A DNA stretch of 64,000 nt from Amoebidium appalachense (Eukaryota > Protista > Ichthyosporea). Where the stretch lies: contig CAVNZM010000009.1 in the NCBI GenBank assembly GCA_963693365.1, forward strand, positions 9,696,081 through 9,760,080, in the 5' to 3' direction. The notes below the pieces were generated by a model. It saw only the letters and a list, made by a program, of their open reading frames with translations, had not been told where the DNA came from and made no database searches. Position numbers and translations under genes: made by a program. Positions within the stretch are counted from its first letter, which is position 1, and each line of letters starts with the position of its first letter. This document shows, in pieces, positions 20,609 to 64,000 of the stretch.

Positions 20609-21500
20609 GAAAGTATGGGAAACCCGAACACTATTTAGCGTACAATACTTATTAGGTTTTATTTGTGGAAATTATTGACATAAATATTTTTCTGGGTAAA
20701 TACGTAGGATGGGTGTCCGATATCTACAGGCTTCGTTTCATGTTTTAGCAGTTCGCGTTCGGCTGCCCGCATACGGGCACCTATTAGCCGATCAAAACAT
20801 CAGATTCCACAGATCTATGAAAAACTACTCCGGGACGTGTGTTGCCTCTAGGGGGACATCCCCTTGGACGAAAGTGAACCTGCAATGGTTGTAAACCACG
20901 GCAAGCCCCCAGTCATCAATTTATTGATCCGTGAGGTCCATGTGCCCAAAAAACGGGGGAAGGCTTCGCCCCGTGAAAAAACAGCACGTATGTGTGGATC
21001 AATGGGGGTTGTGTGTGGGTGTAGGTGGGTGGGTGAAAAGGAATATATAGCTGTAAGGCTGTGGATGCTAAACACAGAAGATGTGTTTGTAGCTTGCTGA
21101 TCTGCTAAAAACTGTCGTGCTTATATACCTAAGCCTACCGATCTGAACCAATCAAAAATCGATCTAGTGATATGTGAAATCTGATCCGAGCCAATCATAA
21201 CTCGGTCTAGTGATCTGTGGTATCTGATGTTTTGACTGGCTAATAGGTGCCCGTGTGCGGGCAGCCAACCGCTAACTGCTAAAACACGAAATGAAGCCTA
21301 CATGGTTATGTTGGTATCGAACACCCATCCTACGTGTTTACCCAGAAAAATATTTATGTCAATAATTTCCACAAATAAAACCTCTATGAAAAACTACTCC
21401 GGGACGTGTGTTGCCTCTAGGGGGACATCCCCTTGGACGAAAGTGAACCTGCAATGGTTGTAAACCACGGCACGAGAGCAGTATGCTTGCTCCAAAGGTT

Positions 21501-22561
21501 TCACTTAAGAATAGAGGCGAATACACGTGTGGTGGTGGCAGCAATGGAGGCCGGACGAAGTCGGGTATAGATCAGGAAGCAGTCGGAGGACCACCGGCCG
21601 AGTTGTTTGATCCGGGAGTCGTCGACCCCGGCCTCAGCCAGTGCTGTGGCCCCCCCGATGCGGAGGCTGTGTCCGGCAAACCGGGAGGGTGAGAGGCCTG
21701 CCCGGGAGAGGAGGGCACGGAAATCGGCAGAGAAAGCACTCTTGGTGTAGGGGATGCCACCGAGACTGAAGAGGGGGTCGTCGGGTTGACCGGACGTTGT
21801 ATCCAGGAACTGCCGGAGGAGATGGGCTGGGGAGAAGTGGGTGAGGGGCAGGGCAGCTAGGGTGACGTTGACACCTCGGGCCTGTACATCCGTCTTAGAG
21901 GTTGGCAGGTGGAGGGTGGCATGGGACAAAGTACCGGTGGGGGTGTAGCTGAAGGTCACGTCCTTCCGTTTAACGTGACGGGACGGGTCGAAAGAAGTCA
22001 GGGTCTTGGAGGTAAATTCCCCTGAACGGAGGAGACCACAGAAACCGACGATGAGGGCCGTCCATAGCCGGAGATTGGCCGAGGAGGCCTTGGTGGGGCA
22101 CTGGCCGTGGAGTAGGTGGAGGTGGGAGGGGAGGAGGGGTTCCCTGGTGGATGAGCGGGGTCGGATGTTGTGAGAAAGCTGCCATCGGCCTACCCCCCGT
22201 AGGAACCAGGCCAGAGACTTGTCGTGGGGGTAGGGAGCAGGGAGGCCCATGTCGAGGTGGAGCCTGGTGATGGCCGAATTGTAGCCGGTTAAGGAAGAGG
22301 CCTGTACCCCTCGTTGGGCACACCAGGCGAGAAAAAGTTGCACGGTGTGTGGGGAGGCCGGGAGGGAGGACCCGGAGGAGGATTGCAGCCGAGATGCCAC
22401 ACAGAAATCGATGAACACTTTTTGCACCCGGGAGTAAAAGGCCCGAGAGTCGAGGTTGAGACTCAGGGCCTGGCATTCCTGCAGGGTAGTGGTGGCTCGA
22501 AGCAGCTCGGCCGGAGCAAAGTGGGGGGCCAATCTGCCAGTGTTGCTCCGGAACGGGAGAT
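21501..22561 (-). CDS. Tyrosine recombinase (Ngaro Y)
   Basis: Catalytic set LLRSGE, SKTD, GHSLRIGGAT, GRW, IY. Confidence 0.93.
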
Positions 22562-22584
22562 CTGGGGGGGGGGGGGGGGGGGGG

Positions 22585-24206
22585 TTAGCCCAAGGGAAGG
22601 GATAGGAACTCGTGGACCCAGGAGGGGAAGGGGCAGGGCTCCGGTTGCAGGGAAGGTCGGAGTCGTCGGGCCCGGGGAAGTTGGTTACGAGAAATGGCAT
22701 CGGCCAGATGGTTGAGGGGTCCTGGTAGGTAGGATGCCTGTAACGTAAATTGGTATTGCATTTCCATGCGGGTGATGAACCGAATAAGTTTGGCCATCAC
22801 GGGGTGGGGGGAAGACCGGGAGTGCAGGTCAGACACAGCACCCGTGTTGTCGCATAAAATACGGACATGGTGGGTGGACCAGGAGGGGGCCCAGAGGGCC
22901 ACGGCGGCTGCGATGGCCAGGAGTTCGATGACGGAAGAACCGAGTTTACCCTCATGAGCATAGAGGGCTTGGGTGGAGGGGGACCAGGGCATGAAGAACC
23001 ATTGGTCGAGCCAGTGGCCACCTAGACCCACCGATCCGGCAGCATCAGTGGCCAGGGTGGTGTATGTGGGGGGTGTGATGAGGTGCACCCCATTCCATGA
23101 TGTGAGGAACTGGTGCCATTCGGCTATGTCGGCCCGGGCGGCAGCAGTCAGTCGTATGTGGTGGTGGCCGGCAAGGTGTGGGTGGGTCCGGAGAAGGGCC
23201 CATAGGCGCTGGGAGAAGGCCCTCCCGGGGGGAACCAGCTGGGCACACCAGGTGAGTTTGCCGAGGAGGGACTGGAGGTCCCGAATGGTGATGGTGGGCT
23301 TTGGGTGGGAAGTGAGGTCGAGTAGGTCCGAGAGCTTGGAAGCCGGGATTCGTGCCTCCATGGCGATGGAGTCGAATTCGATACCGATGAAGACGACACG
23401 GGTAGCCGGGCCCTGCATCTTGTCTTCGGAGATGGCAATGTGCAGCTCTCGGCAGAGTTGCAGAAAGGTGGATAGGTGACGTTGGCACTGCTGTTGTGTG
23501 GGGGCGACTATAATCCAGTCGTCTACGTAGTGGCGGATGAGGGTAATACCGTGCTGGTGTGCCAGCCACTGTAGGGTGGCCGCGATCCGTTCCCAGATGG
23601 CTGGGCTAGATTTCAGGCCGAAGGGCAGTCTGGTTTCAACGTAAAAATGCCCTTGCCATTTGAATGCCATTAAGTGGTGGTCTTCCGGTCGGATGGGCAT
23701 GTGCCGGAAGGCAGCCTGCACATCTGCCACGGCCATGTAGCAGCCGGGGCCTGCGTCGAGAATGAGTTGGGTGACATCCCGGGCGCGAATGTACTGAAGT
23801 TCGTCGGGGTAGGTGATGCTGTCATTGACACTGCTACCCCGGGGCCAGGAGAGGTGGTGGATTCGACGGTACTTGGGGGGGTTCCCTTTCTTGGTAACGG
23901 CGCCGATGGGGGAGGAACGGTGGACGGGAAATTCGTCAAAGAATTGGGCCGGGGAGAGGGGGCCGCGCAGGTGGCCGAGGGCGACTTCTTTGGCAATATC
24001 CACCGTGATAGCGGCAGCTGCCTCCGGGGTGGTGGGTAGGTTGGGGCCCACCCGAGAGGTGGAGGGGCCGCGATAGCCGATGTCGACGCCGAATTCGACA
24101 TCGTGGAGGAGTTGTGCGGCGAATGGTTGGTCCGGGTAGGAGGCCAGCAGTTCCCGGAGGCGGGAGGTGTCAATGTGGTGCTGGGGCAGCGGGCGGGCCT
24201 CCGGGT
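22585..24206 (-). CDS. Reverse transcriptase-RNase H (Ngaro Y)
   Basis: ADVQAAFRH, LPFGLKSSP, HYVDD; RNase H TDAAG, IELLAI, CDN, NHLADAISR. Start placed at the predicted splice acceptor; the ORF track extends to 24420. Confidence 0.93.
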
Positions 24207-24267
24207 CTGAGCCTCGGGGGAAGGGGTGGTTAGCAAGGGTGGTGTACCCTTGGGGAGATCCCGGCAG

Positions 24268-24305
<38 letters not shown>

Positions 24306-24698
24306 CAGGGCCCCGGGGGGTTAGAGTAGGGCAGCTTGGCCCAAGTGAGGGTTGGCAGGGAGGGCAGCGGGGCCCTGTGCAGGGGAATGTGCCCGAGCAC
24401 GCGGGGGTGTGGGCGGACACAGCGGTAGAAGAAGGGGGGGGGAGGGAGTGCTAGGTGAGTGTAAGGGGGGGGGAGGCTCGTGGGATGGGGGGGGGGGGAG
24501 TAAAATTATGTGCAGTGGCCAGAATAAACGTCTTTGTATAGGGACATTTATTCTTGACGCGCGCGGGCGCCGTAGTTGGCCTGCGAAATTTTGTACTCAG
24601 CCCTATTGGCCCGTTCTCCCGAGCTCCGTTTCCCTGTACTCGTGTGTCCTAGCTCCGAACCCCTATGTTCTAGCTGTGTGTGTGGGTGTGCGCGTAGA

Positions 24699-25869
24699 CT
24701 AGGCATTGTGCTTGCAGTCTTTGCGGGGGTGTGTGCCAGAGCAGAGCGGGCACACGTGGGAGAAGGGGCAGGGCTGCTTAGCGCAGGACCGACCGTTAAT
24801 GTGGAAATTCCTGCAGTGCGTCGCGGGTAGATCCACGGGTCGGGCCGGTTTGGCCGGGCCGGGTTGCGGGCCAGGGCGGTTAGGGGTGTGACCCCCGCCG
24901 GGCTTGTGGGGCGGCTTAAAGCCGTCAAGACCACAGCCGGGCTTGGGGTACATGGGGCAGGCCGCGCTGGGGTGGTCGGGGGAAGCCACAGCGCTGACAT
25001 GCGTCCTGGATGAGCAGGGTGGGTGGCAGGAGGAGATCCTGGTGGAGTTGGGCGAGCAGGTTGGGGCACTCGATCGGAGCCCGACCCTGCTGGTGGGCCA
25101 CGGTGCGGGCGTATACGTCATAGTTGTGGATCTGGGCCCACGGGTATCGGGTGCTGAGGCGAGTGATGTGCTGAGTCCAAAGTACGTCTTTGTCCGTGGG
25201 AAGGCCGAGGTGGTGCTTGGCGGCCATGTAATGGGTCCAAGCTTGGATCCAAATGACGAGTGAACGCAGGGGAACGGGTTTGTCTTGGCGAAAAGTCTCG
25301 ATGCTGCCGTCGTCGGCCATGCGCAGATGCTGACCTTTCTTGGATGGGGCCAGGAGGGCGGCGGGGGTGAACTTATACAGGTCGACGAAACGATTGGCGC
25401 GCAAATCTGCCAGCACATCCGCGGGGGGAAGCGGGAGTGTGCCCGGCTGAATGTCGCCAGTGTTCTCACCTGTGATGGGGGGCGCGGGCAGGGCAGGCAG
25501 GTCAAGGTCAGGGCCGAGATGCAGCCCCGGGGAAACCTCCCCGGGTGTGGAGGGCGCGGCGGGGGGCGCGGGAGGGTCGCGGTTGGTGAGAGCAGCCAGG
25601 ACGCCAGCCATCTGGGTGCTGATGGCGGTGAGGGCGGCCAGGACGGCGTCTTGAGAAGTCATCTGCGGGGACGGCGGGGCCTGAGGGGGGACTTCAGGGG
25701 TGGAGGGGAGAGTAGCCGGCGGGTCCGGGTCCGTGGTGGTATGGGCCGCTGGAGGCGCGTCAGTGTCCGCGGGAGCGTTGGTCAGCCTGTGGCGGAGGTC
25801 GCTGCGGGTCAGGCGCTTAGGTGCCGCGGCAGGGGCGGCGGCTGAGGCCTGGCGCTTTTTCGGCGGCAT
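24699..25869 (-). CDS. Gag-like protein with Cys/His fingers (Ngaro Y), frameshift near 24980
   Basis: MPPKKR start; C-terminal CQRCG..H....C and CRNFH...C....CPFSHVCPLC...H....C, split across two frames. Confidence 0.85.
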
Positions 25870-26474
25870 GCTGACCGGCGTAGGGAAAGATAGGGAGAAT
25901 GAAAAGGAGTGAAAAGGAATATATAGCTGTAAGGCTGTGGATGCTAAACACAGAAGATGTGTTTGTAGCTTGCTGATCTGCTAAAAACTGTCGTGCTTAT
26001 ATACCTAAGCCTACCGATCTGAACCAATCAAAAATCGATCTAGTGATATGTGAAATCTGATCCGAGCCAATCATAACTCGGTCTAGTGATCTGTGGTATC
26101 TGATGTTTTGACTGGCTAATAGGTGCCCGTGTGCGGGCAGCCAACCGCTAACTGCTAAAACACGAAATGAAGCCTACATGGTTATGTTGGTATCGAACAC
26201 CCATCCTACGTGTTTACCCAGAAAAATATTTATGTCAATAATTTCCACAAATAAAACTCACTAGACCGAGTTTGATTGGCTCGGATCAGATTTCACATAT
26301 CACTAGATCGTTTTTGATTGGCTCAGTTCGGTAGCCTTAGGTATATAAGCACGACAGTTTTTAGCAGATCAGCAAGCAACAAACACATCTTCTGTGTTTA
26401 GCACCCACAGCTTTACAGCTATATTTTCTTTTTCACTCTTTTCACTCTCCCTATCTTTCCCTCCGCCGGTCAGC

Positions 26475-27645
26475 ATGCCGCCGAAAAAGCGCCAGGCCTC
26501 AGCCACCGCCCCTGCCGCGGCACCCAAGCGCCTGACCCGCAGCGACCTCCGCCACAGGCTGACCAACGCTCCCGCGGACACTGACGCGCCTCCAGCGGCC
26601 CATACCACCACGGACCCGGACCCGCCGGCTAGTCTCCCCCTCCCCCCCTGAAGTCCCCCCTCAGGCCCCGCCGTCCCCGCAGATGACTTCTCAAGACGCC
26701 GTCCTTGCCGCCCTCACCGCCATCAGCACCCAGATGGCTGGCGTCCTGGCTGCTCTCACCAACCGCGACCCTCCCGCGCCCCCCGCCGCGCCCTCCGCAC
26801 CCGGGGAGGTTTCCCCGGGGCTGCATCTCGGCCCTGACCTAGACCTACCTGCCCTGCCCGCGCCCCCCATCACAGGTGAGAACACTGGCGACATTCAGCC
26901 GGGCACACTCCCGCTTCCCCCCGCGGATGTGCTGGCAGATTTGCGCGCCAATCGTTTCGTCGACCTGTATAAGTTCACCCCCGCCGCCCTCCTGGCCCCA
27001 TCCAAGAAAGGTCAGCATCTGCGCATGGCCGACGACGGCAGCATCGAGACTTTTCGCCAAGACAAACCCGTTCCCCTGCGTTCACTCGTCATTTGGATCC
27101 AAGCTTGGACCCATTACATGGCCGCCAAGCACCACCTCGGCCTCCCCACGGACAAAGACGTACTTTGGACTCAGCACATCACTCGCCTCAGCACCCGATA
27201 CCCGTGGGCCCAGATCCACAACTATGACGTATACGCCCGAACCGTTGCCCACCAGCAGGGTCGGGCCCCGATCGAGTGTCCCAACCTGCTCGCCCAACTC
27301 CACCAGGATCTCCTCCTGCCACCCACTCTGCTCATCCCGGACGCATGTCAGCGCTGTGGCTTCCCCGACCACCCCAGCGCGGCCTGCCCCATGTACCCCA
27401 AGCCCGGCTGTGGTCTTGACGGCTTTAAGCCGCCCCACAAGCCCGGCGGGGGTCAAACCCCTAACCGCCCTGGCCCGCAACCCGGCCCGGCCAAACCGGC
27501 CCGACCCGTGGATCTACCCGCGACGCACTGCAGGAATTTCCACATTAACGGTCGGTCCTGCGCTAAGCAGCCCTGCCCCTTCTCCCACGTGTGCCCGCTC
27601 TGCTCTGGCACACACCCCCGCAAAGACTGCAAGCACAATGCCTAG
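26475..27645 (+). CDS. Gag-like protein (Ngaro X), frameshift near 26630-26650
   Basis: Near-identical to the intact gag at 59770-60939. Two ORFs, 26475-26651 and 26683-27645. Confidence 0.85.
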
Positions 27646-28046
27646 TCTACGCGCACACCCACACAGTGCACACAGCTAGAACATAGGGGTTAGGAGCTAG
27701 GACACACGAGTACAGGGAAACGGAGCTCGGGAGAACGGGCCAATAGGGCTGAGTACAAAATTTTCGCAGGCCAACTACGGCGCCCGCGCGCGTCAAGAAT
27801 AAATGTCCCTACACAAAGACGTTTATTCTGGCCACTGCACATAATTTTACTCCCCCCCCCCCCATCCCACGAGCCTCCCCCCCCCCCTTACACTCACCTA
27901 GCACTCCCTCCCCCCCCTTCTTCTACCTCTGTGTCCGCCCACACCCCCGCGTGCTCGGGCACATTCCCCTGCACAGGGCCCCGCTGCCCTCCCTGCCAAC
28001 CCTCACTCGGGCCCAGCTGCCCTACTCTAACCCCCCCGGGGCCCTG

Positions 28047-28083
<37 letters not shown>

Positions 28084-28144
28084 CTGCCGGGATCTCCCCG
28101 AGGGTGCCCCACCCTTGCTAACCACCCCTTCCCCCGAGGCTCAG

Positions 28145-29766
28145 ACCCGGAGGCCCGCCCGCTGCCCCAGCACCACATTGACACCTCCCGCCTCCGGGAA
28201 CTGCTGGCCTCCTACCCAGACCAATCATTCGCCGCACAACTCCTCCACGATGTCGAATTCGGTGTCGACATCGGCTATCGCGGCCCCTCCACCTCTCGGG
28301 TGGGCCCCAACCTACCCACCACCCCGGAGGCAGCTGCCGCTATCACGGCGGATATTGCCAAAGAGGTCGCCCTCGGCCACCTGCGCGGCCCCCTCTCCCC
28401 GGCCCAATTCTTTGACGAATTTCCGGTCCACCGTTCCTCCCCCATCGGCGCCGTTACCAAGAAAGGGAACCCCCCCAAGTACCGTCGAATCCACCACCTC
28501 TCCTGGCCCCGGGGTAGCAGTGTCAATGACAGCATCACCTACCCCGACGAACTTCAGTACATTCGCGCCCGGGATGTCACCCAGCTCATTCTCGACGCAG
28601 GCCCCGGCTGCTACATGGCCGTGGCAGATGTGCAGGCTGCCTTCCGGCACATGCCCATCCGACCAGAAGACCATCACTTAATGGCATTCAAATGGCAGGG
28701 GCATTTTTACGTTGAAACCAGACTGCCCTTCGGCCTGAAATCTAGCCCAGCCATCTGGGAACGGATCGCGGCCACCCTACAGTGGCTGGCACACCAGCAC
28801 GGTATTACCCTCATCCGCCACTACGTAGACGACTGGATTATAGTCGCCCCCACACAAGAGCAGTGCCAACGTCACCTATCCACCTTCCTGCAACTCTGCC
28901 GAGAGCTGCACATTGCCATCTCCGAAGACAAGATGCAGGGCCCGGCTACCCGTGTCGTCTTCATCGGTATCGAATTCGACTCCATCGCCATGGAGGCACG
29001 AATCCCGGCTTCCAAGCTCTCGGACCTACTCGACCTCACTTCCCACCCAAAGCCCACCATCACCATTCGGGACCTCCAGTCCCTCCTCGGCAAACTCACC
29101 TGGTGTGCCCAGCTGGTTCCCCCCGGGAGGGCCTTCTCCCAGCGCCTATGGGCCCTTCTCCGGACCCACCCACACCTTGCCGGCCACCACCACATACGAC
29201 TGACTGCTGCCGCCCGGGCCGACATAGCCGAATGGCACCAGTTCCTCACATCATGGAATGGGGTGCACCTCATCACACCCCCCACATACACCACCCTGGC
29301 CACCGATGCTGCCGGATCGGTGGGTCTAGGAGGCCACTGGCTCGACCAATGGTTCTTCATGCCCTGGTCCCCCTCCACCCAAGCCCTCTATGCTCATGAG
29401 GGTAAACTCGGTTCTTCCGTCATCGAACTCCTGGCCATCGCAGCCGCCGTGGCCCTCTGGGCCCCCTCCTGGTCCACCCACCATGTCCGTATTTTATGCG
29501 ACAACACGGGTGCTGTGTCTGACCTGCACTCCCGGTCTTCCCCCCACCCCGTGATGGCCAAACTTATTCGGTTCATCACCCGCATGGAAATGCAATACCA
29601 ATTTACGTTACAGGCATCCTACCTACCAGGACCCCTCAACCATCTGGCCGATGCCATTTCTCGTAACCAACTTCCCCGGGCCCGACGACTCCGACCTTCC
29701 CTGCAACCGGAGCCCTGCCCCTTCCCCTCCTGGGTCCACGAGTTCCTATCCCTTCCCTTGGGCTAA
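28145..29766 (+). CDS. Reverse transcriptase-RNase H (Ngaro X)
   Basis: Same motifs as copy Y. The ORF track gives 27931-29766 with no ATG start; start placed at the predicted acceptor. Confidence 0.93.
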
Positions 29767-29794
29767 CCCCCCCCCCCCCCCCCCCCCCCCCCAG

Positions 29795-30855
29795 ATCTCC
29801 CGTTCCGGAGCAACGCTGGCAGATTGGCCCCCCACTTTGCTCCGGCCGAGCTGCTTCGAGCCACCACTACCCTGCAGGAATGCCAGGCCCTGAGTCTCAA
29901 CCTCGACTCTCGGGCCTTTTACTCCCGGGTGCAAAAAGTGTTCATCGATTTCTGTGTGGCATCTCGGCTGCAATCCTCCTCCGGGTCCTCCCTCCCGGCC
30001 TCCCCACACACCGTGCAACTTTTTCTCGCCTGGTGTGCCCAACGAGGGGTACAGGCCTCTTCCTTAACCGGCTACAATTCGGCCATCACCAGGCTCCACC
30101 TCGACATGGGCCTCCCTGCTCCCTACCCCCACGACAAGTCTCTGGCCTGGTTCCTACGGGGGGTGGGCAGATGGCAGCTTTCTCACAACATCCGACCCCG
30201 CTCATCCACCAGGGAACCCCTCCTGCCCTCCCACCTCAGCCTACTCCATGGCCAGTGCCCCACCAAGGCCTCCTCGGCCAATCTCCGGCTATGGACGGCC
30301 CTCATCGTCGGTTTCTGTGGTCTCCTCCGTTCAGGGGAATTTACCTCCAAGACCCTGACTTCTTTCGACCCGTCCCGTCACGTTAAACGGAAGGACGTGA
30401 CCTTCAGCTACACCCCCACCGGTACTTTGTCCCATGCCACCCTCCACCTGCCAACCTCTAAGACGGATGTACAGGCCCGAGGTGTCAACGTCACTCTAGC
30501 TGCCCTGCCCCTCACCCACTTCTCCCCAGCCCATCTCCTCCGGCAGTTCCTGGATACAACGTCCGGTCAACCCGACGACCCCCTCTTCAGTCTCGGTGGC
30601 ATCCCCTACACCAAGAGTGCTTTCTCTGCCGACTTCCGTGCCCTCCTCTCCCGGGCAGGCCTCTCACCCTCCCGGTTTGCCGGACACAGCCTCCGCATCG
30701 GGGGGGCCACAGCACTGGCTGAGGCCGGGGTCGACGACTCCCGGATCAAACAACTCGGCAGGTGGTCCTCCGACTGTTTCCTGATCTATACCCGACTTCG
30801 TCCGGCCTCCATTGCTGCCACTACCACACGTGTATTCGCCTCTATTCTTAAGTGA
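29795..30855 (+). CDS. Tyrosine recombinase (Ngaro X)
   Basis: R-K-HxxR-W-Y motifs. Begins after CTAAC-(C)n-CAG. Confidence 0.93.
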
Positions 30856-31835
30856 AACCTTTGGAGCAAGCATACTGCTCTCGTGCCGTGGTTTACAACC
30901 ATTGCAGGTTCACTTTCGTCCAAGGGGATGTCCCCCTAGAGGCAACACACGTCCCGGAGTAGTTTTCATAGAGGTTTTATTTGTGGAAATTATTGACATA
31001 AATATTTTTCTGGGTAAACACGTAGGATGGGTGTCCGATATCAACATAACCATGTAGGCTTCGTTTCATGTTTTAGCAGTTCGCGTTCGGCTGCCCGCAT
31101 ACGGGCACCTATTAGCCGATCAAAACATCAGATTCCACAGATCACTAGACCGAGTTTGATTGGCTCAGGATCAGATTTCACATAACACTAGATCGGTTTT
31201 GATTGGCTCAGTTCGGTAGCCTTAGGTATATAAGCACGACAGTTTTTAGCAGATCAGCAAGCAACAAACACATCTTCTGTGTTTAGCACCTACAGCTTTA
31301 CAGCTATATTTTCTTTTTCACCCACCCACCTACACCCTACACTCAACCCCCATTGATCCCCACATACGTGCTGTTTTTTCACGGGGCGAAGACTTCCCCC
31401 GTTTTTTGGGCACAAGGACCTCACGGATCAATAAATTGATGACTGGGGGCCTGCCGTGGTTTACAACCATTGCAGGTTCACTTTCGTCCAAGGGGATGTC
31501 CCCCTAGAGGCAACACACGTCCCGGAGTAGTTTTCATAGATTATTATTATTATTATTCCTTATTTGCGTGGACGACGTCTATGGAAAAGAGGAAGTGCAT
31601 ACCCACCCACCAAAAAAGAACAAAAGAAAATCCACCAACCACAGATATGAAATATGGAATATGAATTGATTTCAGAAGACTTTCTCCCGAAACGGCGACA
31701 CCGCATGCACAGCAATCATCGGTTACGACCCATGTGCACGTACTTGTTCACAAGGAACTCCTCCTTTCCTCCTGCGGGTACTGGAAGGGGATGCGTGGAA
31801 AATTCCCAATATCGTTTCAACGTCCACAACGTTGT

Positions 31836-40052: not shown

Positions 40053-40057
40053 CGACG

Positions 40058-48300: not shown

Positions 48301-50148
48301 TGGGTTCAGCTGCTGAGCAGGTGCGCCAGGGGCTCCCGGGCCCAGAAAGTTGTCTCCATCATCCGTGCAGGGCTCACCGCGTGCAAGTCAGAGGTGAACC
48401 GGGGCATGCACACCGCCATGCGCAGCTACATTGTGCCAGGGACAAACCAAGATGTATGTGATGACTTTTTTCCCACACCGTCTGCATGTCGTGAATCTGC
48501 TTGGGTTTTGCTCATGGCTGAATCATCTTGCAATTCATGATCGATATGTTGGCAGCTTGATGATTGTGTCTTCAAATGACAAAGGGTAACAATAAAGACA
48601 GGTTTTTTCATACGGGTTTGCATACAAACTGCAACAGGTGCCGTGAGACTCACAACTAATCCCCCCCCCCCCCCCCCCCTCCCCCCCCCCCACAAACACA
48701 CAATACACATACACACACCTGCACACACAGGCACATTTACATGTAACACGCACACACACGCACACACACACTCTCACACACGATGCACATGTTACACAGC
48801 ACTATAGTGGTTTTAATTTGCACTTCCACAAACACATTAGGGTTTTATTTGTGGAAATTATTGACATAAATATTTTTCTGGGTAAACACGTAGGATGGGT
48901 GTCCGATATCAACAGGCTTCGTTTCATGTTTTAGCAGTTCGCGTTCGGCTGCCCGCATACGGGCACCTATTAGCCGATCAAAGCATCAGATTCCACAGAT
49001 CACTAGACCGAGTTTGATTGGCTCAGGATAAGATTTCACATAACACTAGATCGGTTTTGATTGGCTCAGTTCGGCAGCCTTAGGTATATAAGCACGACAG
49101 TTTTTAGCAGATCAGCAAGCAACAACACATCCTCTGTGTTTAGCACCTACAGCTTTACAGCTATATTTTCTTTTTCTTTTCTTCTCCCTATCTTTCCCTA
49201 CGCCGGTCAGCATGCCGCCGAAAAAGCGCCAGGCCTCAGCCGCCGCCCCTACCGCGGCACCTAAGCGCCTAACCCGCAGCGACCTCCGCCACAGGCTGAC
49301 CAACGCATCACTCGCCTCAGCACCCGATACCCGTGGACCCAGATCCACAACTATGACGTATACGCCCGAACCGTTGCCCACCAACAGGGTCGGGCTCCGA
49401 TCGAGTGTCCCAACCTGCTCGCCCAACTCCACCAGGATCTCCTCCTGCCACCCACTCTGCTCATCCCGGACGCATGTCAGCGTTGCGGCTTCCCCGACCA
49501 CCCCAGCGCGGCCTGCCCCATGTACCCCAAGCCCGGCTGTGGTCTTGATGGTTTCGAGCCCCCCCACAAGCCCGGCGGGGGACAAACCCCCAACCGACCC
49601 GGCCCGCAACCCGGCCCGGCACCACCGGCCCGACCCGTGGATCTACCCGCAACACACTGCAGGAATTTCCACAACGGTCGGTCCTGCGCTAAGCAGCCCT
49701 GCCCCTTCTCCCACGTGTGCCCGCTCTGCTCTGGCACACACCCCCGCAAAGACTGCAAGCACAATGCCTAGTCTACGCGCACACCCACACCCACAGATAG
49801 AACATAGGGGCTAGGAGCTAGGTTACACGGGTCCAAGGACACGGAGCTCGGGAAAAACGGGGCACTAGGGCTGAGTAACATTTTTCGCAGGCCAACTACG
49901 GCGCCCGCGCGCGCCAAGAATAAATGTCCCTACACAAAGACGTTATTCTGGCCACTGCACATAAATTTACTCCCCCCCATCCCACGAGCCTCCCCCCCTT
50001 ACACTCACCTAGCGCTCCCTCCCTTCTTCTAACTCTGTGTACGCCCACACCCGCGCGTGCTCGGGCATCCCCTGCACAGGGCCCCGCTGCCCTCCCTGCA
50101 AACCCTCCCTCGGGCCCAGCTGCCCTACTCTAACCCCCCGGGGCCCTG

Positions 50149-50185
<37 letters not shown>

Positions 50186-50613
50186 ATGCCGGGATCTCCC
50201 CGAGGGTGCCCCACCCTTGCTAACCACCCCTTCCCCCGAGGCTCAGCCCCGGTGGCCCGCCCGCTGCCCCAGCACCACGTTGACACCTCCCGCCTCTGGG
50301 AGCTGCTGGCCCCCCTACCCAGCCCAATCATTCGCCGCGCAGCTCCTCCGTAACCAACTTCCCCGGACCCGACGACTCCGACCTTACCTGCAACCGGAGC
50401 CCTGCCCCTTCCCCTTCTGGGTCCACAAGTTCCTATCCCTTCCCCTGGGCTCACCCCCCCCCCCCCCCCCCCCCAGATCTCCCCTTCCGGAGCAACGCTG
50501 GCCGATTGGCCCCCCACTTTGCTCCGGCCGAGCTGCTTCGTGCCACCACTACCCTGCAGGAATGCCAGGCCCTGAGTCTCAACCTCGACTCTCGGGCCTT
50601 TTACTCCAGGGTA

Positions 50614-50652
<39 letters not shown>

Positions 50653-53630
50653 GTTCATCGATTTTTGTGTGGCATCTCGGCTGCAATCCTCCGCCGGGTC
50701 CTCCCTCCCGGCCTCCCCCCACACCGTGCAGCTTTTTTCTCGCCTGGTGTGCCCAACGAGGGGTACAGGCCTCTTCCTTGGCCGGCTACAATTCAGCCAT
50801 CACCAGACTCCACCTCGACATGGGCCTCCCTGCTCCCTACCCCCACGACAAGTCTCTGGCCTGGTTCTTCCGAGGGGTGGGCAGATGGCAGCTTTCTCAC
50901 AACATCCGACCCCGATCATCCACCAGGGAGCCCCTCCTGCCCTCCCACCTTAGCCTACTCCATGACCAGTGCCCCACCAAGGCCTCCTCGGCTAATCTAC
51001 GGCTATGGACGGCCCTCATCGTCGGTTTCTGTGGTCTCCTCCGTTCGGGGGAATTTACCTCCAAAACCCTGACTTCCTTTGACCCGTCCCGTCACGTTAA
51101 ACGGAAAGACGTGACCTTCACCTACACCCCCACCGGTACTTTGTCCCATGCCACCCTCCACCTGCCAACCTCTAAGACGGATGTACAGGCCCGAGGTGTC
51201 AACGTCACTCTAGCTGCCCTGCCCCTCACCCACTTCTCCCCAGCCCATCTCCTCCGGCAGTTCCTGGATACAACGTCCGGTCAACCCAACGACCCCCTCT
51301 TCAGTCTCGGTGGCATCCCCTACACCAAGAGTGCTTTCTCTGCCGACAAGCATACTGCTCTCGTGCCGTGGTTTACAACCATTGCAGGTTCACTTTCGTC
51401 CAAGGGGATGTCCCCCTAGAGGCAACACACGTCCCGGAGTAGTTTTCATAGAGGTTTTATTTGTGGAAATTATTGACATAAATATTTTTCTGGGTAAACA
51501 CGTAGGATGGGTGTCCGATATCAACAGGCTTCGTTTCATGTTTTAGCAGTTCGCGTTCGGCTGCCCGCATACGGGCACCTATTAGCCGATCAAAGCATCA
51601 GATTCCACAGATCACTAGACCGAGTTTGATTGGCTCAGGATAAGATTTCACATAACACTAGATCGGTTTTGATTGGCTCAGTTCGGCAGCCTTAGGTATA
51701 TAAGCACGACAGTTTTTAGCAGATCAGCAAGCAACAACACATCCTCTGTGTTTAGCACCTACAGCTTTACAGCTATATTTTCTTTTTCACCCACCCACCT
51801 ACACCCTACACTCAACCCCCATTGATCCCCACATACGTGCTGTTTTTTCACGGGGCGAAGACTTCCCCCGTTTTTTTTGGGCACAAGGACCTCACGGATC
51901 AATAAATTGATGACTGGGGGCTTGCCGTGGTTTACAACCATTGCAGGTTCACTTTCGTCCAAGGGGATGTCCCCCTAGAGGCAACACACGTCCCGGAGTA
52001 GTTTTCATAGATGCATACATACACAGCTGTTCCAGGTTGCACCGGTCAACTCCGCAGACCTTGCCGAGTTGGCCGAGCAGATCAAGTTTCGCCGCACGAC
52101 TTGGGAGGGCTACATGGCGGTGCACCAGACCAACGGCCTGCCCTGCGGCCGCAAGTACAGCGTGGACCCCGTAACCGGCAACCCGTGGGGCAACTCGTCG
52201 CTCTACCGCATCATGTGCCTGGCCCCCATCAACGGGTCATTGATCAAGGAGCGCCTCGGCAAGTTCAAGACCCTCAACGTGGGTCCCCCCCCCCCCCCCC
52301 CCCCCCCCCCTTGAGAAACTCATTCTCTTCGGAGGTGTAGGAGCACCCCTAGTGATGGGATCTGGCTAACTGTTCCTTGCTTTGCATATTCCTTGCCGAG
52401 AGATTTGTTTCTGTTTCTTTTTCCTTTTTTTTTCCCGTTAATTTTTTTTTTTTTTTCTTACCTTTTTTTTTTTTTGTGCAAGTGGGTCCCCCCCCCCCCC
52501 CCCCCCCCCCCCCTCCTCCCCCAAAGAATGTACGCATCAATATGCAGACATGATTTAGCCACACCCAAACCTGACCCTCTGAAGGTGGGCGGCCCAGCAA
52601 CTTCTTTACCACATATTGTTATACAGTGTACCTTCAACCTTATGTTGGTGTAAATTCTCATCAACCATCCCCCCTCCCCCCCCCCCCCCCCCTCCTCCTT
52701 TCTCAACGTCTCGCACACCTCCCCTATTACACACACACCACTCCCCATTCACACACGCACACACACACACACACACACATACACTTGCACACACACACTC
52801 ACACACAGAAATTCCAGAAGGAGTTGCCCGACTTGTTCAGCTTCATGCTGCACACGTTCGAGTGTGGGTTGCGTGACCCTGTCGCGCACAAGTCGGGCAC
52901 CCACATCAAGTGGTCCGCTGTGGTGTACCACGCCGACCAGCCAGACTACGAGGGCGGGGCCCACCCGGCAGAGATAGCAAGGGTAAGTTTTTTGTGCAAC
53001 TATCCGAACGTGTTCGGATGATCTGATCAGCACTATGATGTACTCGAGTGTGTGTTTTTGTGTTCATTAGATGCTAATAACATGTCTTCATGGGTCATTG
53101 TTTCTAAACGATGCTCTTCAGGTGGTCTACTAGATGTTCCCACATACTTGTAATATGGGATTTATATGGACATAAGGACAGTCTTGTGTATATCAGTCTT
53201 TGAGTTTCCGAGGTATGCGTGTTAGAGCTGTGACCTTGACTATGTCAAATACATATAATAATGTTCTCATAACTACACTTCATATTCCCCCACTAACCCC
53301 CCCCCCCCCCCCCCCTAGAACGTCAAAAACTGGGACAAGATCTCCAAGGCCCGTGCCGATGCGGTGAAAGATCTGGACCTGGCGGATGACTACAAGGCCA
53401 ACAAGAACGCCAAGCAGCAGGACGCTGCAAAGGAGAGGGGCCCCAAGTCTGTCAAGCGGACTAGGGAAGACGTCGACGACAGCAGCGAGGCCCAGGGCGG
53501 TGGCCTAAGCAAGAAGGGCAAGAGTACGGTTGGGTCGCCGGTAGCCCCGGCCCCGGCTCCCAACCAGCAAGGTGATGAAGAGGGTGGTGAGGAGGAAAAT
53601 GGGGGGGTTGAGGGAGGGGGGATGGCGTGA
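45356..53630 (+). CDS. 9-exon gene: basic N-terminus, KDM4-like JmjC domain, uncharacterised C-terminal region
   Basis: Phase-consistent exons 45356-45623, 45725(or 45704)-46186, 46540-46753, 47418-47635, 48030-48064, 48124-48453, 52027-52278, 52809-52982, 53319-53630. The exon 2 donor (GTGCAT) is weak. Confidence 0.7.
45725..46186 (+). CDS. KDM4/JMJD2-like JmjC catalytic core
   Basis: RFAGHVEDAGL...GYKVWFVHPP...CENPLQHK...VVQGPGDLIQTTPLALHYGFQCGPNVSFAVNTATKKW...CSC aligns by eye with KDM4 (FAWHTED, KSWY, CEAFLRHK, TQEAGEF, YHAGFNHGFN, NFATRRW, CSC). Confidence 0.88.
47731..47943. repeat. Two tandem copies of a ~110-bp unit in an intron
   Basis: gaatcctcgtaat...caatagatccttatatga...tctcgagtatttt.tgacattcca occurs twice. 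Confidence 0.8.
48841..52011 (+). mobile_element. Ngaro copy W, non-autonomous (three internal deletions), in intron 6 of the JmjC gene
   Basis: All four repeats A1/B1/A2/B2 are intact. Deletions near 49305 (gag), 50349 (nearly all RT/RH) and 51347 (YR C-terminus). Poly-A expansion at ~50615-50650. Confidence 0.93.
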
Positions 53631-53764
53631 AGGGCGATGAGAAGGTGGAGGAGGAATTGGATGAAGAAAATGGGGAAGGGGGGCAAACTTTGAAGCGTGA
53701 GAGATCTGAGAGTGAGGAGGAGAGCGAGGATGAGGAAGGAGGGACATCAGCAAACTTCCCGGCG

Positions 53765-58252: not shown

Positions 58253-58479
58253 AAAACAAACAAAAAAGAAAGAAAAAAAGAGCGAGAGAATCCTTGTTTC
58301 TCGTATGTTACCAGCACGTAAGCAAGTATTTTATTCATTCACAATACATTGTTAGGTATGTGTAGTATATTATGGTGTTATTATTTTTTGGTTTACAATA
58401 TGGTGTCCACATTCCCAATATATCGTTATTGTCGACCAACTACTATGGTAGTGTAATGCTATGATGACAATTTGTGCAT

Positions 58480-59380
58480 GCGTTACTTATAAGCATCGGG
58501 TTTTTTCACTAACTACCCACAGAGTAGCTTCTAGCACGATAAATTCACCACAAATTATAAGGGGAGATGGTGAATGTGCCCTTGGAGTACGAGGGCCACA
58601 CGAAAAAAACACAACGTTGTAGCTCGAATAGAACCCCCCTTGTAGCATAGTATATGTACATGTGTTACTTACACATTATTGGTTTTTTCAATAACTACCC
58701 ACAGAACAGCTTCTAGCACGAGACATTTACCACACAGTTTATGGGGGGGATGGTGAATGTGCCCCTGGAGTACGAGGGTCACACGAAAAAAACACAACGT
58801 TGTAGCTCGAATAGAACCCCCCTTGTGGCATAATATATGTACATGTGTTACTTACACATTATTGGTTATTTCAATAACTACCCACAGAACAGCCTCTCGC
58901 ACGAGATATTTACCACAAAGTTTATGGGGGGGATAGTGAATGTGCCCCTGGAGTACGAGAGTCACACGAAAAAAACACAACGTTGTAGCTCGAATAGAAC
59001 CCCCCTTGTAGCATAATATATGTATATGTGTTACCTAGACATTATTGGTTTTTTCAATAACTACCCACAGAACAGCTTCTAGCACGAGACATTTACCACA
59101 CAGTTTATGGGGGGGATGTTGAATGTGCCCCTGGAGTACGAGGGTCACACAAAAAAAACACAACGTTGTAGCTCGAATAGAACCCCCCTTGTAGCTGATA
59201 ATATATGTACATGTGTTACTTACACATTATTGGTTTTTTCGATAACTACCCACAGAACAGCTTCTAGCACGAGACATTTACCACACAGTTTATGGGGGGG
59301 ATGGTGAATGTGCCCTTGGAGTACGAGGGTCACACGAAAAAAACACAACGTTGTAGCTCGTATAGAACCCCCCTTGTAGC
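58480..59380. repeat. Second array of the ~183-bp unit (~5 copies), truncated by Ngaro Z insertion
   Basis: Same unit and orientation as 42370-43375. Ends at ccccttgtagc|ggtttt. Confidence 0.95.
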
Positions 59381-59769
59381 GGTTTTATTTGTGGAAATTA
59401 TTGACATAAATATTTTTCTGGGTAAACACGTAGGATGGGTGTTCGATACCAACATAACCATGTAGGCTTCATTTCGTGTTTTAGCAGTTAGCGGTTGGCT
59501 GCCCGCACACGGGCACCTATTAGCCAGTCAAAACATCAGATACCACAGATCACTAGACCGAGTTATGATTGGCTCGGATCAGATTTCACATATCACTAGA
59601 TCGATTTTTGATTGGTTCAGATCGGTAGGCTTAGGTATATAAGCACGACAGTTTTTAGCAGATCAGCAAGCTACAAACACATCTTCTGTGTTTAGCATCC
59701 ACAGCCTTACAGCTATATATTCCTTTTCATTCCTTTTCATTCTCCCTATCTTTCCCTACGCCGGTCAGC

Positions 59770-60939
59770 ATGCCGCCGAAAAAGCGCCCGGCCTCAGCCG
59801 CCGCCCCTGCCGCGGCACCTAAGCGCCTGACCCGCAGCGACCTCCGCCACAGGCTGACCAACGCTCCCGCGGACACTGACGCGCCTCCAGCGGCCCATAC
59901 CACCACGGACCCGGACCCGCCGGCTACTCTCCCCTCCACCCCTGAAGTCCCCCCTCAGGCCCCGCCGTCCCCGCAGATGACTTCTCAAGACGCCGTCCTG
60001 GCCGCCCTCACCGCCATCAGCACCCAGATGGCTGGCGTCCTGGCTGCTCTCACCAACCGCGACCCTCCCGCGCCCCCCGCCGCGCCCTCCACACCCGGGG
60101 AGGTTTCCCCGGGGCTGCATCTCGGCCCTGACCTTGACCTGCCTGCCCTGCCCGCGCCCCCCATCACAGGTGAGAACACTGGCGACATTCAGCCGGGCAC
60201 ACTCCCGCTTCCCCCCGCGGATGTGCTGGCAGATTTGCGCGCCAATCGTTTCGTCGACCTGTATAAGTTCACCCCCGCCGCCCTCCTGGCCCCATCCAAG
60301 AAAGGTCAGCATCTGCGCATGGCCGACGACGGCAGCATCGAGACTTTTCGCCAAGACAAACCCGTTCCCCTGCGTTCACTCGTCATTTGGATCCAAGCTT
60401 GGACCCATTACATGGCCGCCAAGCGCCACCTCGGCCTTCCCACGGACAAAGACGTACTTTGGACTCAGCACATCACTCGCCTCAGCACCCGATACCCGTG
60501 GGCCCAGATCCACAACTATGACGTATACGCCCGCACCGTGGCCCACCAGCAGGGTCGGGCTCCGATCGAGTGCCCCAACCTGCTCGCCCAACTCCACCAG
60601 GATCTCCTCCTGCCACCCACCCTGCTCATCCAGGACGCATGTCAGCGCTGTGGCTTCCCCGACCACCCCAGCGCGGCCTGCCCCATGTACCCCAAGCCCG
60701 GCTGTGGTCTTGACGGCTTTAAGCCGCCCCACAAACCCGGCGGGGGTCACACCCCTAACCGCCCTGGCCCGCAACCCGGCCCGGCCAAACCGGCCCGACC
60801 CGTAGATCTACCCGCGACGCACTGCAGGAATTTCCACATTAACGGTCGGTCCTGCGCTAAGCAGCCCTGCCCCTTCTCCCACGTGTGCCCGCTCTGCTCT
60901 GGCACACACCCCCGCAAAGACTGCAAGCACAATGCCTAG
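59770..60939 (+). CDS. Intact Gag-like protein (Ngaro Z), 389 aa
   Basis: MPPKKR NLS-like start, C-terminal CCHC- and CCCH-like fingers. Confidence 0.9.
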   Translation: MPPKKRPASAAAPAAAPKRLTRSDLRHRLTNAPADTDAPPAAHTTTDPDPPATLPSTPEVPPQAPPSPQMTSQDAVLAALTAISTQMAGVLAALTNRDPPAPPAAPSTPGEVSPGLHLGPDLDLPALPAPPITGENTGDIQPGTLPLPPADVLADLRANRFVDLYKFTPAALLAPSKKGQHLRMADDGSIETFRQDKPVPLRSLVIWIQAWTHYMAAKRHLGLPTDKDVLWTQHITRLSTRYPWAQIHNYDVYARTVAHQQGRAPIECPNLLAQLHQDLLLPPTLLIQDACQRCGFPDHPSAACPMYPKPGCGLDGFKPPHKPGGGHTPNRPGPQPGPAKPARPVDLPATHCRNFHINGRSCAKQPCPFSHVCPLCSGTHPRKDCKHNA

Positions 60940-61334
60940 TCTACGCGCACACCCACACACACAGCTAGAACATAGGGGTTCGGAGCTAGGACACACGAGT
61001 ACAGGGAAACGGAGCTCGGGAGAACGGGCCAATAGGGCTGAGTACAAAATTTCGCAGGCCAACTACGGCGCCCGCGCGCGTCAAGAATAAATGTCCCTAT
61101 ACAAAGACGTTTATTCTGGCCACTGCACATAATTTTACTCCCCCCCCCCCCCCATCCCACGAGCCTCCCCCCCTTACACTCACCTAGCACTCCCTCCCCC
61201 CCCCCCTTCTTCTACCGCTGTGTCCGCCCACACCCCCGCGTGCTCGGGCACATTCCCCTGCACAGGGCCCCGCTGCCCTCCCTGCCAACCCTCACTTGGG
61301 CCAAGCTGCCCTACTCTAACCCCCCGGGGCCCTG

Positions 61335-61380
<46 letters not shown>

Positions 61381-61442
61381 CTGCCGGGATCTCCCCAAGG
61401 GTACACCACCCTTGCTAACCACCCCCTTCCCCCGAGGCTCAG

Positions 61443-63064
61443 ACCCGGAGGCCCGCCCGCTGCCCCAGCACCACATTGACACCTCCCGCCTCCGGGAACT
61501 GCTGGCCTCCTACCCGGACCAACCATTCGCCGCACAACTCCTCCACGATGTCGAATTCGGCGTCGACATCGGCTATCGCGGCCCCTCCACCTCTCGGGTG
61601 GGCCCCAACCTACCCACCACCCCGGAGGCAGCTGCCGCTATCACGGTGGATATTGCCAAAGAAGTCGCCCTCGGCCACCTGCGCGGCCCCCTCTCCCCGG
61701 CCCAATTCTTTGACGAATTTCCCGTCCACCGTTCCTCCCCCATCGGCGCCGTTACCAAGAAAGGGAACCCCCCCAGGTACCGTCGAATCCACCACCTCTC
61801 CTGGCCCCGGGGTAGCAGTGTCAATGACAGCATCACCTACCCCGACGAACTTCAGTACATTCGCGCCCGGGATGTCACCCAACTCATTCTCGACGCAGGC
61901 CCCGGCTGCTACATGGCCGTGGCAGATGTGCAGGCTGCCTTCCGGCACATGCCCATCCGACCGGAAGACCACCACTTAATGGCATTCAAATGGCAAGGGC
62001 ATTTTTACGTTGAAACCAGACTGCCCTTCGGCCTGAAATCTAGCCCAGCCATCTGGGAACGGATCGCGGCCACCCTACAGTGGCTGGCACACCAGCACGG
62101 TATTACCCTCATCCGCCACTACGTAGACGACTGGATTATAGTCGCCCCCACACAACAGCAGTGCCAACGTCACCTATCCACCTTTCTGCAACTCTGCCGA
62201 GAGCTGCACATTGCCATCTCCGAAGACAAGATGCAGGGCCCGGCTACCCGTGTCGTCTTCATCGGTATCGAATTCGACTCCATCGCCATGGAGGCACGAA
62301 TCCCGGCTTCCAAGCTCTCGGACCTACTCGACCTCACTTCCCACCCAAAGCCCACCATCACCATTCGGGACCTCCAGTCCCTCCTCGGCAAACTCACCTG
62401 GTGTGCCCAGCTGGTTCCCCCCGGGAGGGCCTTCTCCCAGCGCCTATGGGCCCTTCTCCGGACCCACCCACACCTTGCCGGCCACCACCACATACGACTG
62501 ACTGCTGCCGCCCGGGCCGACATAGCCGAATGGCACCAGTTCCTCACATCATGGAATGGGGTGCACCTCATCACACCCCCCACATACACCACCCTGGCCA
62601 CTGATGCTGCCGGATCGGTGGGTCTAGGTGGCCACTGGCTCGACCAATGGTTCTTCATGCCCTGGTCCCCCTCCACCCAAGCCCTCTATGCTCATGAGGG
62701 TAAACTCGGTTCTTCCGTCATCGAACTCCTGGCCATCGCAGCCGCCGTGGCCCTCTGGGCCCCCTCCTGGTCCACCCTCCATGTCCGTATTTTATGCGAC
62801 AACACGGGTGCTGTGTCTGACCTGCACTCCCGGTCTTCCCCCCACCCCGTGATGGCCAAACTTGTTCGGTTCATCACCCGCATGGAAATGCAATACCAAT
62901 TTACGTTACAGGCATCCTACCTACCAGGACCCCTCAACCATCTGGCCGATGCCATTTCTCGTAACCAACTTCCCCGGGCCCGACGACTCCGACCTTCCCT
63001 GCAACCGGAGCCCTGCCCCTTCCCCTCCTGGGTCCACGAGTTCCTATCCCTTCCCTTGGGCTAA
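61443..63064 (+). CDS. Reverse transcriptase-RNase H (Ngaro Z)
   Basis: YVDD and RNase H motifs. Start at the predicted acceptor. Confidence 0.93.
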
Positions 63065-63094
63065 CACCCCCCCCCCCCCCCCCCCCCCCCCCAG

Positions 63095-64000
63095 ATCTCC
63101 CGTTCCGGAGCAACACTGGCAGATTGGCCCCCCACTTTGCTCCGGCCGAGCTGCTTCGAGCCACCACTACCCTGCAGGAATGCCAGGCCCTGAGTCTCAA
63201 CCTCGACTCTCGGGCCTTTTACTCCCGGGTGCAAAAAGTGTTCATCGATTTCTGTGTGGCATCTCGGCTGCAATCCTCCTCCGGGTCCTCCCTCCCGGCC
63301 TCCCCACACACCGTGCAACTTTTTCTCGCCTGGTGTGCCCAACGAGGGGTACAGGCCTCTTCCTTAACCGGCTACAATTCGGCCATCACCAGGCTCCACC
63401 TCGACATGGGCCTCCCTGCTCCCTACCCCCACGACAAGTCTCTGGCCTGGTTCCTACGGGGGGTGGGCCGATGGCAGCTTTCTCACAACATCCGACCCCG
63501 CTCATCCACCAGGGAACCCCTCCTCCCCTCCCACCTCCACCTACTCCACGGCCAGTGCCCCACCAAGGCCTCCTCGGCCAATCTCCGGCTATGGACGGCC
63601 CTCATCGTCGGTTTCTGTGGTCTCCTCCGTTCAGGGGAATTTACCTCCAAGACCCTGACTTCTTTCGACCCGTCCCGTCACGTTAAACGGAAGGACGTGA
63701 CCTTCAGCTACACCCCCACCGGTACTTTGTCCCATGCCACCCTCCACCTGCCAACCTCTAAGACGGATGTACAGGCCCGAGGTGTCAACGTCACCCTAGC
63801 TGCCCTGCCCCTCACCCACTTCTCCCCAGCCCATCTCCTCCGGCAGTTCCTGGATACAACGTCCGGTCAACCCGACGACCCCCTCTTCAGTCTCGGTGGC
63901 ATCCCCTACACCAAGAGTGCTTTCTCTGCCGATTTCCGTGCCCTCCTCTCCCGGGCAGGCCTCTCACCCTCCCGGTTTGCCGGACACAGCCTCCGCATCG
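63095..64000 (+). CDS. Tyrosine recombinase (Ngaro Z), partial
   Basis: Near-identical to the X and Y YR sequences. Truncated by the window end. Confidence 0.9.

What the first reader, a model, noticed from the sequence alone, without database searches (positions are those of the whole stretch)
59770..63095. Ngaro RT and YR appear to be expressed by alternative splicing from one donor in gag
Seen: neither the RT/RH nor the YR frame has a usable ATG start. Gag has a strong donor ACAG|GTGAGA after base 1 of codon 134 (60169; X 26875; Y 25470). RT is preceded by CTAAC-pyrimidines-(GAG)..CAG (61415-61442) and YR by CTAAC-(C)n-CAG (63061-63094), the same acceptor style as the intron ending at 53318. 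Both acceptors are phase 1, so each splice restores an Asp codon and fuses the 133-aa MPPKKR leader in frame (..PIT-D-PEARPL.. and ..PIT-D-LPFRS..). Poly-C length differences that scramble the frames between copies X, Y and Z fall upstream of these acceptors, while the downstream frames stay intact. Inference: one promoter gives unspliced Gag/genomic RNA, GagN-RT/RH and GagN-YR, all sharing an NLS-like leader. I do not know of this being described for Ngaro elements.
Basis: partly seen in the sequence, partly recalled or inferred. Interest (0 to 1): 0.8.

Follow-up and report, generated by a model that had tools for sequence, protein, structure and literature searches.

The report
Ngaro retrotransposon with spliced gag fusions
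A young jumping gene has reverse-transcriptase and recombinase genes with no usable start codon, and it likely makes both enzymes by splicing the front of its gag gene onto each of them, a route that sequence and distant relatives support but that RNA has not yet shown.

Summary
This is a young Ngaro-type tyrosine-recombinase retrotransposon with four copies in the window. The donor after 60169 and the acceptors at 61442 (or 61436) and 63094 are real, all phase 1, and in frame. The first in-frame ATGs would cut off the RT N-terminus and four recombinase helices. Gag and RT lie 503 nt apart, and frame offsets differ among all three full copies, so frameshifting is unlikely. New support: a 32%-identical family has the same 9-mer donor, same phase, the same 27 codons above the Gag core; a fungal-looking relative has one at 25. 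A 53%-identical relative has its RT stop in a branch motif, then 45 AG-free bases. Limits: an RNA run holds one unspliced contig across the donor and no junction. Distant relatives show no RT acceptor. The poly-C 'scrambling' argument is only partly right. A second donor (60304) and a third acceptor (61265) also fit. I found no published description for Ngaro/DIRS in ten searches; key reviews were not read. The scan noted similar splice plans in other genomes. Verdict: splicing likely (about 0.65 for the full model), unproven.

The parts
59381..59729 (+). A1 split direct repeat (349 bp), likely the promoter; TATATAA at 59636-59642
59770..60169 (+). Leader: 133 codons + 1 base, Pro/Ala-rich, basic N-terminus; predicted shared first exon
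   Evidence: Gag homology starts about 10 aa after it
60167..60175 (+). Best donor, CAG|GTGAGA, phase 1; the only 8/9 site in 59660-63094
   Evidence: same 9-mer, phase and offset in L021 and L023
60302..60310 (+). Second candidate donor AAG|GTCAGC (7/9), also phase 1
59770..60939 (+). gag ORF, 389 aa, with C-terminal Cys/His fingers; intact only in copy Z
60940..61442 (+). 503-nt gag-RT spacer with stops, indels and C-runs of 14, 11 and 42; AATAAA at 61086-61091 in all four copies; further phase-1 CAG at 61265
61415..61442 (+). RT acceptor: CTAAC, pyrimidines, GAG (61436), CAG (61442); both phase 1
61443..63064 (+). RT/RNase H frame (539 aa), no methyltransferase seen, first Met at residue 157
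63061..63094 (+). YR acceptor: CTAAC containing the RT stop, C26, AG; phase 1
   Evidence: parallel arrangement decoded in P0001/P0100
63095..64000 (+). Cre-like tyrosine recombinase frame (runs off the window; complete in X and Y)
26258..31541 (+). Copy X; the first part of its A1 lies at 20655-20815; +1 in the leader
20813..26257 (-). Copy Y, complete: A1 26257-25909, B1 21472-21383, A2 21381-21033, 129-nt spacer, B2 20903-20814; +1 in gag after the donor
48841..52012 (+). Copy W, internally deleted: no donor, both acceptor regions kept, deletions not at splice sites

Best explanation
This Ngaro-type retrotransposon likely makes one transcript from its A1 repeat, which unspliced would give Gag and the genomic RNA, and which the host spliceosome likely joins from the donor after 60169 to 61442 (or 61436) for a leader-RT/RNase H fusion and to 63094 for a leader-recombinase fusion. 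Shown: the sites, their phases, the open frames, the missing start codons, and the conserved donor position in relatives. Inferred: use of the sites, the single promoter, a nuclear-targeting role for the leader, and possible shortening of gag mRNA at the AATAAA in the spacer. The donor-to-YR splice looks older than the donor-to-RT splice, since distant relatives keep the donor but have gag overlapping RT.
For: (1) No usable start. The RT first Met lies after the fingers motif matched to Ty3 RT. The YR first Met at 104 would drop helices 16-32, 36-55, 70-82 and 87-103 of a pLDDT 90.9 Cre-like model. (2) No recoding route: gag ends 48-248 nt before the RT frame opens, further stops follow the gag stop, and the gag-RT and RT-YR offsets take all three values among Z, X and Y. 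(3) Sites sit at domain edges: YR homology to P0100 starts right after the acceptor, RT homology 10 aa after it, the Gag core about 10 aa after the donor. (4) Null: 1 of 2000. (5) L021 and L023 (RT 32% identical to the window, 83% to each other, counted as one lineage) have CAG|GTGAGA in phase 1, 27 codons above the Gag-core anchor as here, their only 8/9 gag donor (null 20 of 5000). L001 has a 7/9 phase-1 donor at 25 codons (null 54 of 5000). (6) P0001 (RT, 53%) and P0100 (YR, 54%) overlap in two frames, the only fit among 11880 pairs. Decoded, the RT stop lies in YTRAC, the next 45 nt cannot hold AG and are 85% pyrimidine at fixed positions (0 of 874 overlapping coding windows of the same proteins are AG-free), and the first possible AG is phase 1 and gives Asp. 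(7) The host splices an AG|GTGAGG donor in a near-identical transcript of the neighbour gene.
Against: RNA run X1 (shown to be RNA by GT..AG joints) has one 668-nt contig, 60046-60713, depth 16, that crosses the donor unspliced, and no joint at the donor is listed. The model expects unspliced RNA, but this is all the RNA shows. 0 of 4 distant loci with the RT 5' region in view (L001, L002, L021, L023) have a branch + pyrimidine + phase-1 acceptor above RT. L002 has no donor at the homologous offset (its best is at 2 codons), and donor-compatible Gly pairs are not enriched at offset 27 in distant Gag proteins (2 of 39). Stops fall in YTRAC by chance 16-25% of the time, and C-rich spacers are AG-poor by composition. 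The RT frame stays in register over 61200-61320 in three copies. The YR frame is -1 to RT in Z and in 5 of 5 relatives, which also fits a frameshift.
Confidence: 0.65

Rival explanations
1. Splicing, but with other sites: donor 60304, the upstream RT acceptor at 61265, or splicing used only for YR while RT is reached another way.
For: 60304 is 7/9 and phase 1. The CAG at 61265 is phase 1 in the stretch that stays in register in Z, X and Y. Distant relatives keep the donor but show no RT acceptor.
Against: 60304 lies inside the conserved Gag core and is weaker. 61265 has no CTAAC in Z, X or Y and would put a 33-42-nt C homopolymer in coding sequence. The conserved donor is 60169.
Confidence: 0.15
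2. Internal promoters or internal initiation at near-cognate codons: GTG near 61221 for RT, and CTG 23 codons above the YR exon, where the 53% relative has ATG.
For: The GTG is in the RT frame in Z, X and Y. P0100 begins at an ATG at the same offset as Z's in-frame CTG. CCAAT and TATA-like words occur in Z's spacer.
Against: The CTG is in frame only in Z (X has 10 open codons). The ATG/CTG overlaps a conserved RT Trp codon. The promoter-like words are altered in X or W. The agreement of register is about a 1-in-9 event.
Confidence: 0.12
3. Recoding at the RT-YR border (-1 frameshift or stop read-through) gives an RT-YR fusion, as assumed for elements with overlapping ORFs.
For: YR is -1 to RT in Z and in 5 of 5 relatives, and in frame with RT in X. 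Long C-run lengths may be assembly errors that hide one true register.
Against: Offsets differ in all three copies, and Z differs from X by a non-C base as well. It cannot explain RT, which does not overlap gag here.
Confidence: 0.08

Closest known systems
Ngaro tyrosine-recombinase retrotransposons (order DIRS)
   Same: gag, RT/RH, YR on one strand; no methyltransferase; split direct repeats A1...B1 A2 B2; Cre-like YR (definitions from passages of PMC3783388, PMC8547959, PMC13465315).
   Different: gag and RT are 503 nt apart, RT and YR do not overlap in coding terms, a 129-nt unique segment lies between A2 and B2, and splice signals flank the start-less ORFs. Passage searches found no occurrence of 'splic' in PMC3783388, PMC8547959, PMC3266345 or PMC9210276.
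Murine leukemia virus SD' RNA (P50/P60), passages of PMC10496198
   Same: A donor inside gag joined to a downstream acceptor gives a Gag N-terminus fused in frame to a pol-derived domain.
   Different: There it is an accessory protein with part of integrase and one acceptor. Here it would be the only route to both whole enzymes, with two acceptors, in a non-LTR-type YR element.
Avian retrovirus env/src and foamy virus pol mRNAs (recalled, no call)
   Same: One 5' donor with alternative acceptors; polymerase made from a spliced RNA (foamy virus).
   Different: Only a few gag codons or none are kept there; here 133 codons would head both enzymes.

Membership tests
Ngaro | ORF order gag, RT/RH, YR on the same strand | tested here: met
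Ngaro | Split direct repeats A1 ... B1 A2 B2 | tested here: met
   Copy Y: A 349 bp and B 90 bp, each pair 100% identical; a 129-nt segment separates A2 from B2
Ngaro | No methyltransferase after RT/RH | tested here: met
   The frame ends shortly after the RNase H motifs; Pfam finds only RT families at E up to 1
Ngaro | Catalytic tyrosine recombinase | tested here: met
   R178, H297, R300, Y331 invariant in 48 sequences; PF00589 above cut-off in X and Y; Cre fold, E 1.5e-13
Ngaro | RT groups with named Ngaro references in a tree | not tested
   No named Ngaro, PAT or DIRS reference sequences were among the tool results
DIRS1-like | Inverted terminal repeats with ICR, and a methyltransferase | tested here: not met
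   Repeats are direct; the inverted matches come from nesting of Y in X's A1
PAT-like | Methyltransferase domain | tested here: not met
VIPER-like | YR placed before RT/RH (order recalled; PMC6681497 passages consistent) | tested here: not met
   YR follows RT/RH
Alternatively spliced retroelement | Spliced junctions in RNA | tested here: inconclusive
   One unspliced contig across the donor, no junction listed, contigs only

The most novel reading that the evidence does not exclude
A splice donor just above the Gag core is an ancient feature of many Ngaro elements and is the general route to their start-less recombinase, as with retroviral env. This family has gone further and also makes its reverse transcriptase by splicing, so one Gag leader heads all three proteins and no ribosomal frameshift is needed.
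Probability: 0.4. Interest if true: 0.82.

Novelty: new variant of a known kind. Interest (0 to 1): 0.64.

Why it matters
How YR retrotransposons express downstream ORFs that lack a start codon is not explained in the papers I could read, and automated gene callers fail on them (passage in PMC8547959). This element names exact junctions, so the question can be tested by RT-PCR or by mining existing reads. If the donor is as conserved as L021, L023 and L001 suggest, the same test applies to animal and fungal Ngaro families, their RT and YR proteins are mis-annotated at the N-terminus, and the elements must balance spliced mRNAs against an unspliced genome as retroviruses do.

Tried and rejected
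No whole genome is held, so copy number and other families could not be surveyed. The run search listed no holder on record as RNA; X1 and X8 were later shown to be RNA by GT..AG joints. X1 has no cover at 61184-61811 or 62911-63224, so neither acceptor could be read; the tool skips the C-runs there; X8 covers only the A repeat and X9 nothing. X1's YR contig is W-type (2 differences from W, 29 from Z), so it says little about intact copies. Run X7 (kind not on record) shows only deletion joints (59912>60687, 61507>62960) and no processed, intron-less copy. The joints 50475>53288-53297 are poly-C artefacts. No close Gag relative was found, so the donor could not be checked in the 53% relative. 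Viral contigs gave no RT relative and 15 recombinase loci without RT. The first prokaryote-genome scan was empty. L005's gag could not be aligned and was left out of the donor count; L003 and L004 lack gag. L022's RT stop lies in CTGAC with a phase-1 CAG 15 nt on, but that CAG falls inside the first YR helix, so I do not count it; L002 and L004 stops are not in YTRAC. The spacer ATG at 61091 is closed by a stop after 13 codons. W's deletions are not at splice sites. The protein atlas did not answer. The kangaroo paper is not held. The term search of PMC5009743 returned nothing for any term and is uninformative.

Full report
What is there. The window is repeat-rich, intron-bearing eukaryotic DNA; no genome is held and I did not identify the host. 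It holds four copies of one element: Z (59381 to the window end), X (26258-31541), Y (26257-20813, minus strand, inserted in X's A1 repeat) and a deleted copy W (48841-52012). Z differs from X at 75 and from Y at 20 substituted sites over about 4.4 kb. Y has A1, the ORFs, B1, A2, a 129-nt segment and B2, with each repeat pair 100% identical. The ORFs are a 389-aa Gag with distant relatives (44 hits; fingers aligned), a 539-aa RT/RNase H (PF00078; Ty3 RT best in PDB) and a Cre-like recombinase with intact R-H-R-Y residues. No methyltransferase is seen. By structure this is Ngaro; tree placement was not tested.

The observation. Of all GT sites from 59660 to 63094 only two reach 7/9 of the consensus: 60169 (8/9) and 60304 (7/9), both phase 1. 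Resampling the element gave acceptor motifs in both boundary windows with matching phase in 1 of 2000 runs. The same scan finds four such motifs in Z against a null mean of 1.4; two of them (59890, and 60169 itself) play no part in the model. The windows were drawn around the observed sites and are justified by where homology starts.

Why a special route is needed. The first in-frame Met is residue 157 of RT and residue 104 of YR. The latter would remove four confidently modelled helices of the N-terminal domain. Gag ends 48-248 nt before the RT frame opens, another stop follows in the gag frame, and the offsets gag-RT (1, 0, 2) and RT-YR (2, 0, 1) differ in Z, X and Y. The sites also mark domain edges: the Gag core starts about 10 aa after the donor, RT homology 10 aa after its acceptor, and YR homology right after its acceptor.

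X has a +1 in the leader and Y a +1 in gag, both in C-runs, so indels are not confined to the proposed introns and some may be assembly errors. Upstream of the RT acceptor the indels cancel, leaving 61200-61320 in register in Z, X and Y but not W. That is about a 1-in-9 event, and it leaves a GTG start and a further phase-1 CAG at 61265 as alternatives. The intron ending at 53318 is not RNA-verified.

Relatives: donor. Three contigs of one family, labelled as a Mariprofundus MAG and probably eukaryotic contamination, have RT 32-35% identical to the window's. L021 and L023, 83% identical to each other, both carry CAG|GTGAGA in phase 1 exactly 27 codons above the Gag-core anchor, as here. It is their only 8/9 donor in gag (null 20 of 5000 within three codons). 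L001 has a 7/9 phase-1 donor at 25 codons (null 54 of 5000). L002 has none there; its best donor is phase 1 at 2 codons. That is 2 of 3 independent lineages with an alignable gag; L005 was dropped as unalignable. A protein-only check of distant Gags showed no enrichment (2 of 39 at offset 27), so the donor is not universal at that spot.

Relatives: acceptors. P0001 (RT, 53%) and P0100 (YR, 54%) fit as overlapping frames over 13 codons, the only fit of 8 or more codons among 11880 pairs. The two frames fix part of the DNA. The RT stop lies in YTRAC, the following 15 codons cannot contain AG and are 85% pyrimidine where fixed (0 of 874 overlapping coding windows of these proteins are AG-free), and the first possible AG is phase 1 and gives Asp. 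Whether that base really is A is unknown without the DNA. The same relative has an in-frame ATG where Z has CTG, which feeds a rival, and stops fall in YTRAC by chance 16-25% of the time. For RT, 0 of 4 distant loci show a convincing phase-1 acceptor; in three of them (L002, L021, L023) gag overlaps RT. YR is -1 to RT in 5 of 5 relatives, and each of the four with DNA has some phase-1 YAG above YR, none strong.

RNA. No holder was on record as RNA. Laying X1, X8 and X2 on 44500-54900 showed GT..AG joints in a near-identical transcript of the neighbour gene (45623>46540 in X1 and X8; 46753>47418 in X8), so X1 and X8 are RNA, and the host uses an AG|GTGAGG donor. On the element, X1 has one contig crossing the donor unspliced (60046-60713, depth 16) and no joint is listed. 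These are contigs, which drop rare forms, and DNA of a multicopy element may contribute. The RNA neither shows nor excludes the splices.

Mechanism. Most likely a single RNA from A1 stays unspliced for Gag and the genome and is spliced from 60169 to give leader-RT/RH and leader-YR (0.65). An AATAAA 146-152 nt after the gag stop in all four copies could end a gag-only RNA; this is untested. The basic N-terminus recurs in distant Gags and L002 also begins MPPKKR, but nuclear targeting is an inference. Rivals: other splice sites or YR only (0.15), internal starts (0.12), recoding (0.08).

Literature. Ten searches listed no paper describing spliced expression of Ngaro or DIRS ORFs. I read term-matched passages only, no supplements, of PMC7192593 (splicing concerns the marker intron), PMC4157794, PMC3783388, PMC8547959, PMC3266345, PMC9210276, PMC9341512, PMC6681497, PMC5633606, PMC8226300, PMC10496198, PMC12477816 (its TE annotation supplement was not read and may bear on this) and PMC13465315. 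PMC5009743 gave no passages. Duncan 2002 is not held. Goodwin and Poulter 2004, Poulter and Butler 2015 and Repbase notes were not read and could already mention spliced ESTs. The closest documented analogue is MLV SD'; the avian and foamy virus cases are recalled.

Earlier scan notes. Six notes on other genomes propose related splice plans in YR retrotransposons; of the lines shown, none reports RNA proof. There were none for this genome or sequence. They are unchecked leads, not evidence.

Verdict. A real feature in an ordinary Ngaro element, with a likely undescribed expression route. New variant of a known kind, interest 0.64.

Noticed in passing
window 20655-31541: Copy Y sits in opposite orientation inside the A1 repeat of copy X. 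No target duplication is evident, and the three right ends seen all read ...TTTTCATA followed by GAT.
   Followed up: partly
window 49105>51420 (and loose end at 59658): RNA runs X1 (depth 231) and X8 (15) hold a non-canonical joint from just after the TATA region of repeat A to the last 30 nt of repeat B, suggesting a transcribed miniature A-B derivative.
   Followed up: no
window 61086-61091; X, Y, W equivalents; A2-B2 segment: AATAAA after the gag stop in all four copies, and a second AATAAA in the segment between A2 and B2. X1's last listed gag-side contig ends at 61093.
   Followed up: partly
window 60130-60175: The donor site also reads as an acceptor (CTGAC, pyrimidines, CAG|GT), like a recursive splice site, but no upstream donor of 7/9 or better exists in the element.
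   Followed up: partly
window 45357-53630: Multi-exon gene interrupted by copy W. A close paralog is highly represented and spliced in X1 and X8 but diverges after 47621.
   Followed up: partly
window 860-1805, 7104-11400, 31836-35963, 39127-40063: Copia-type RT frames (PF07727) and long terminal-repeat-like segments, including one inside an apparent intron of a Myb-like host gene (label by eye) at 409-4067.
   Followed up: no
window 42368-43375 and 58470-59380: Arrays of a roughly 183-bp tandem repeat; copy Z is inserted at the end of the second array.
   Followed up: no
L021, L022, L023: Ngaro-like contigs lie in a bacterial MAG record, probably eukaryotic contamination.
   Followed up: partly
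window 50615-50650: Copy W has a 36-nt poly-A expansion in YR, and the YR contig in RNA run X1 is of the W type.
   Followed up: partly
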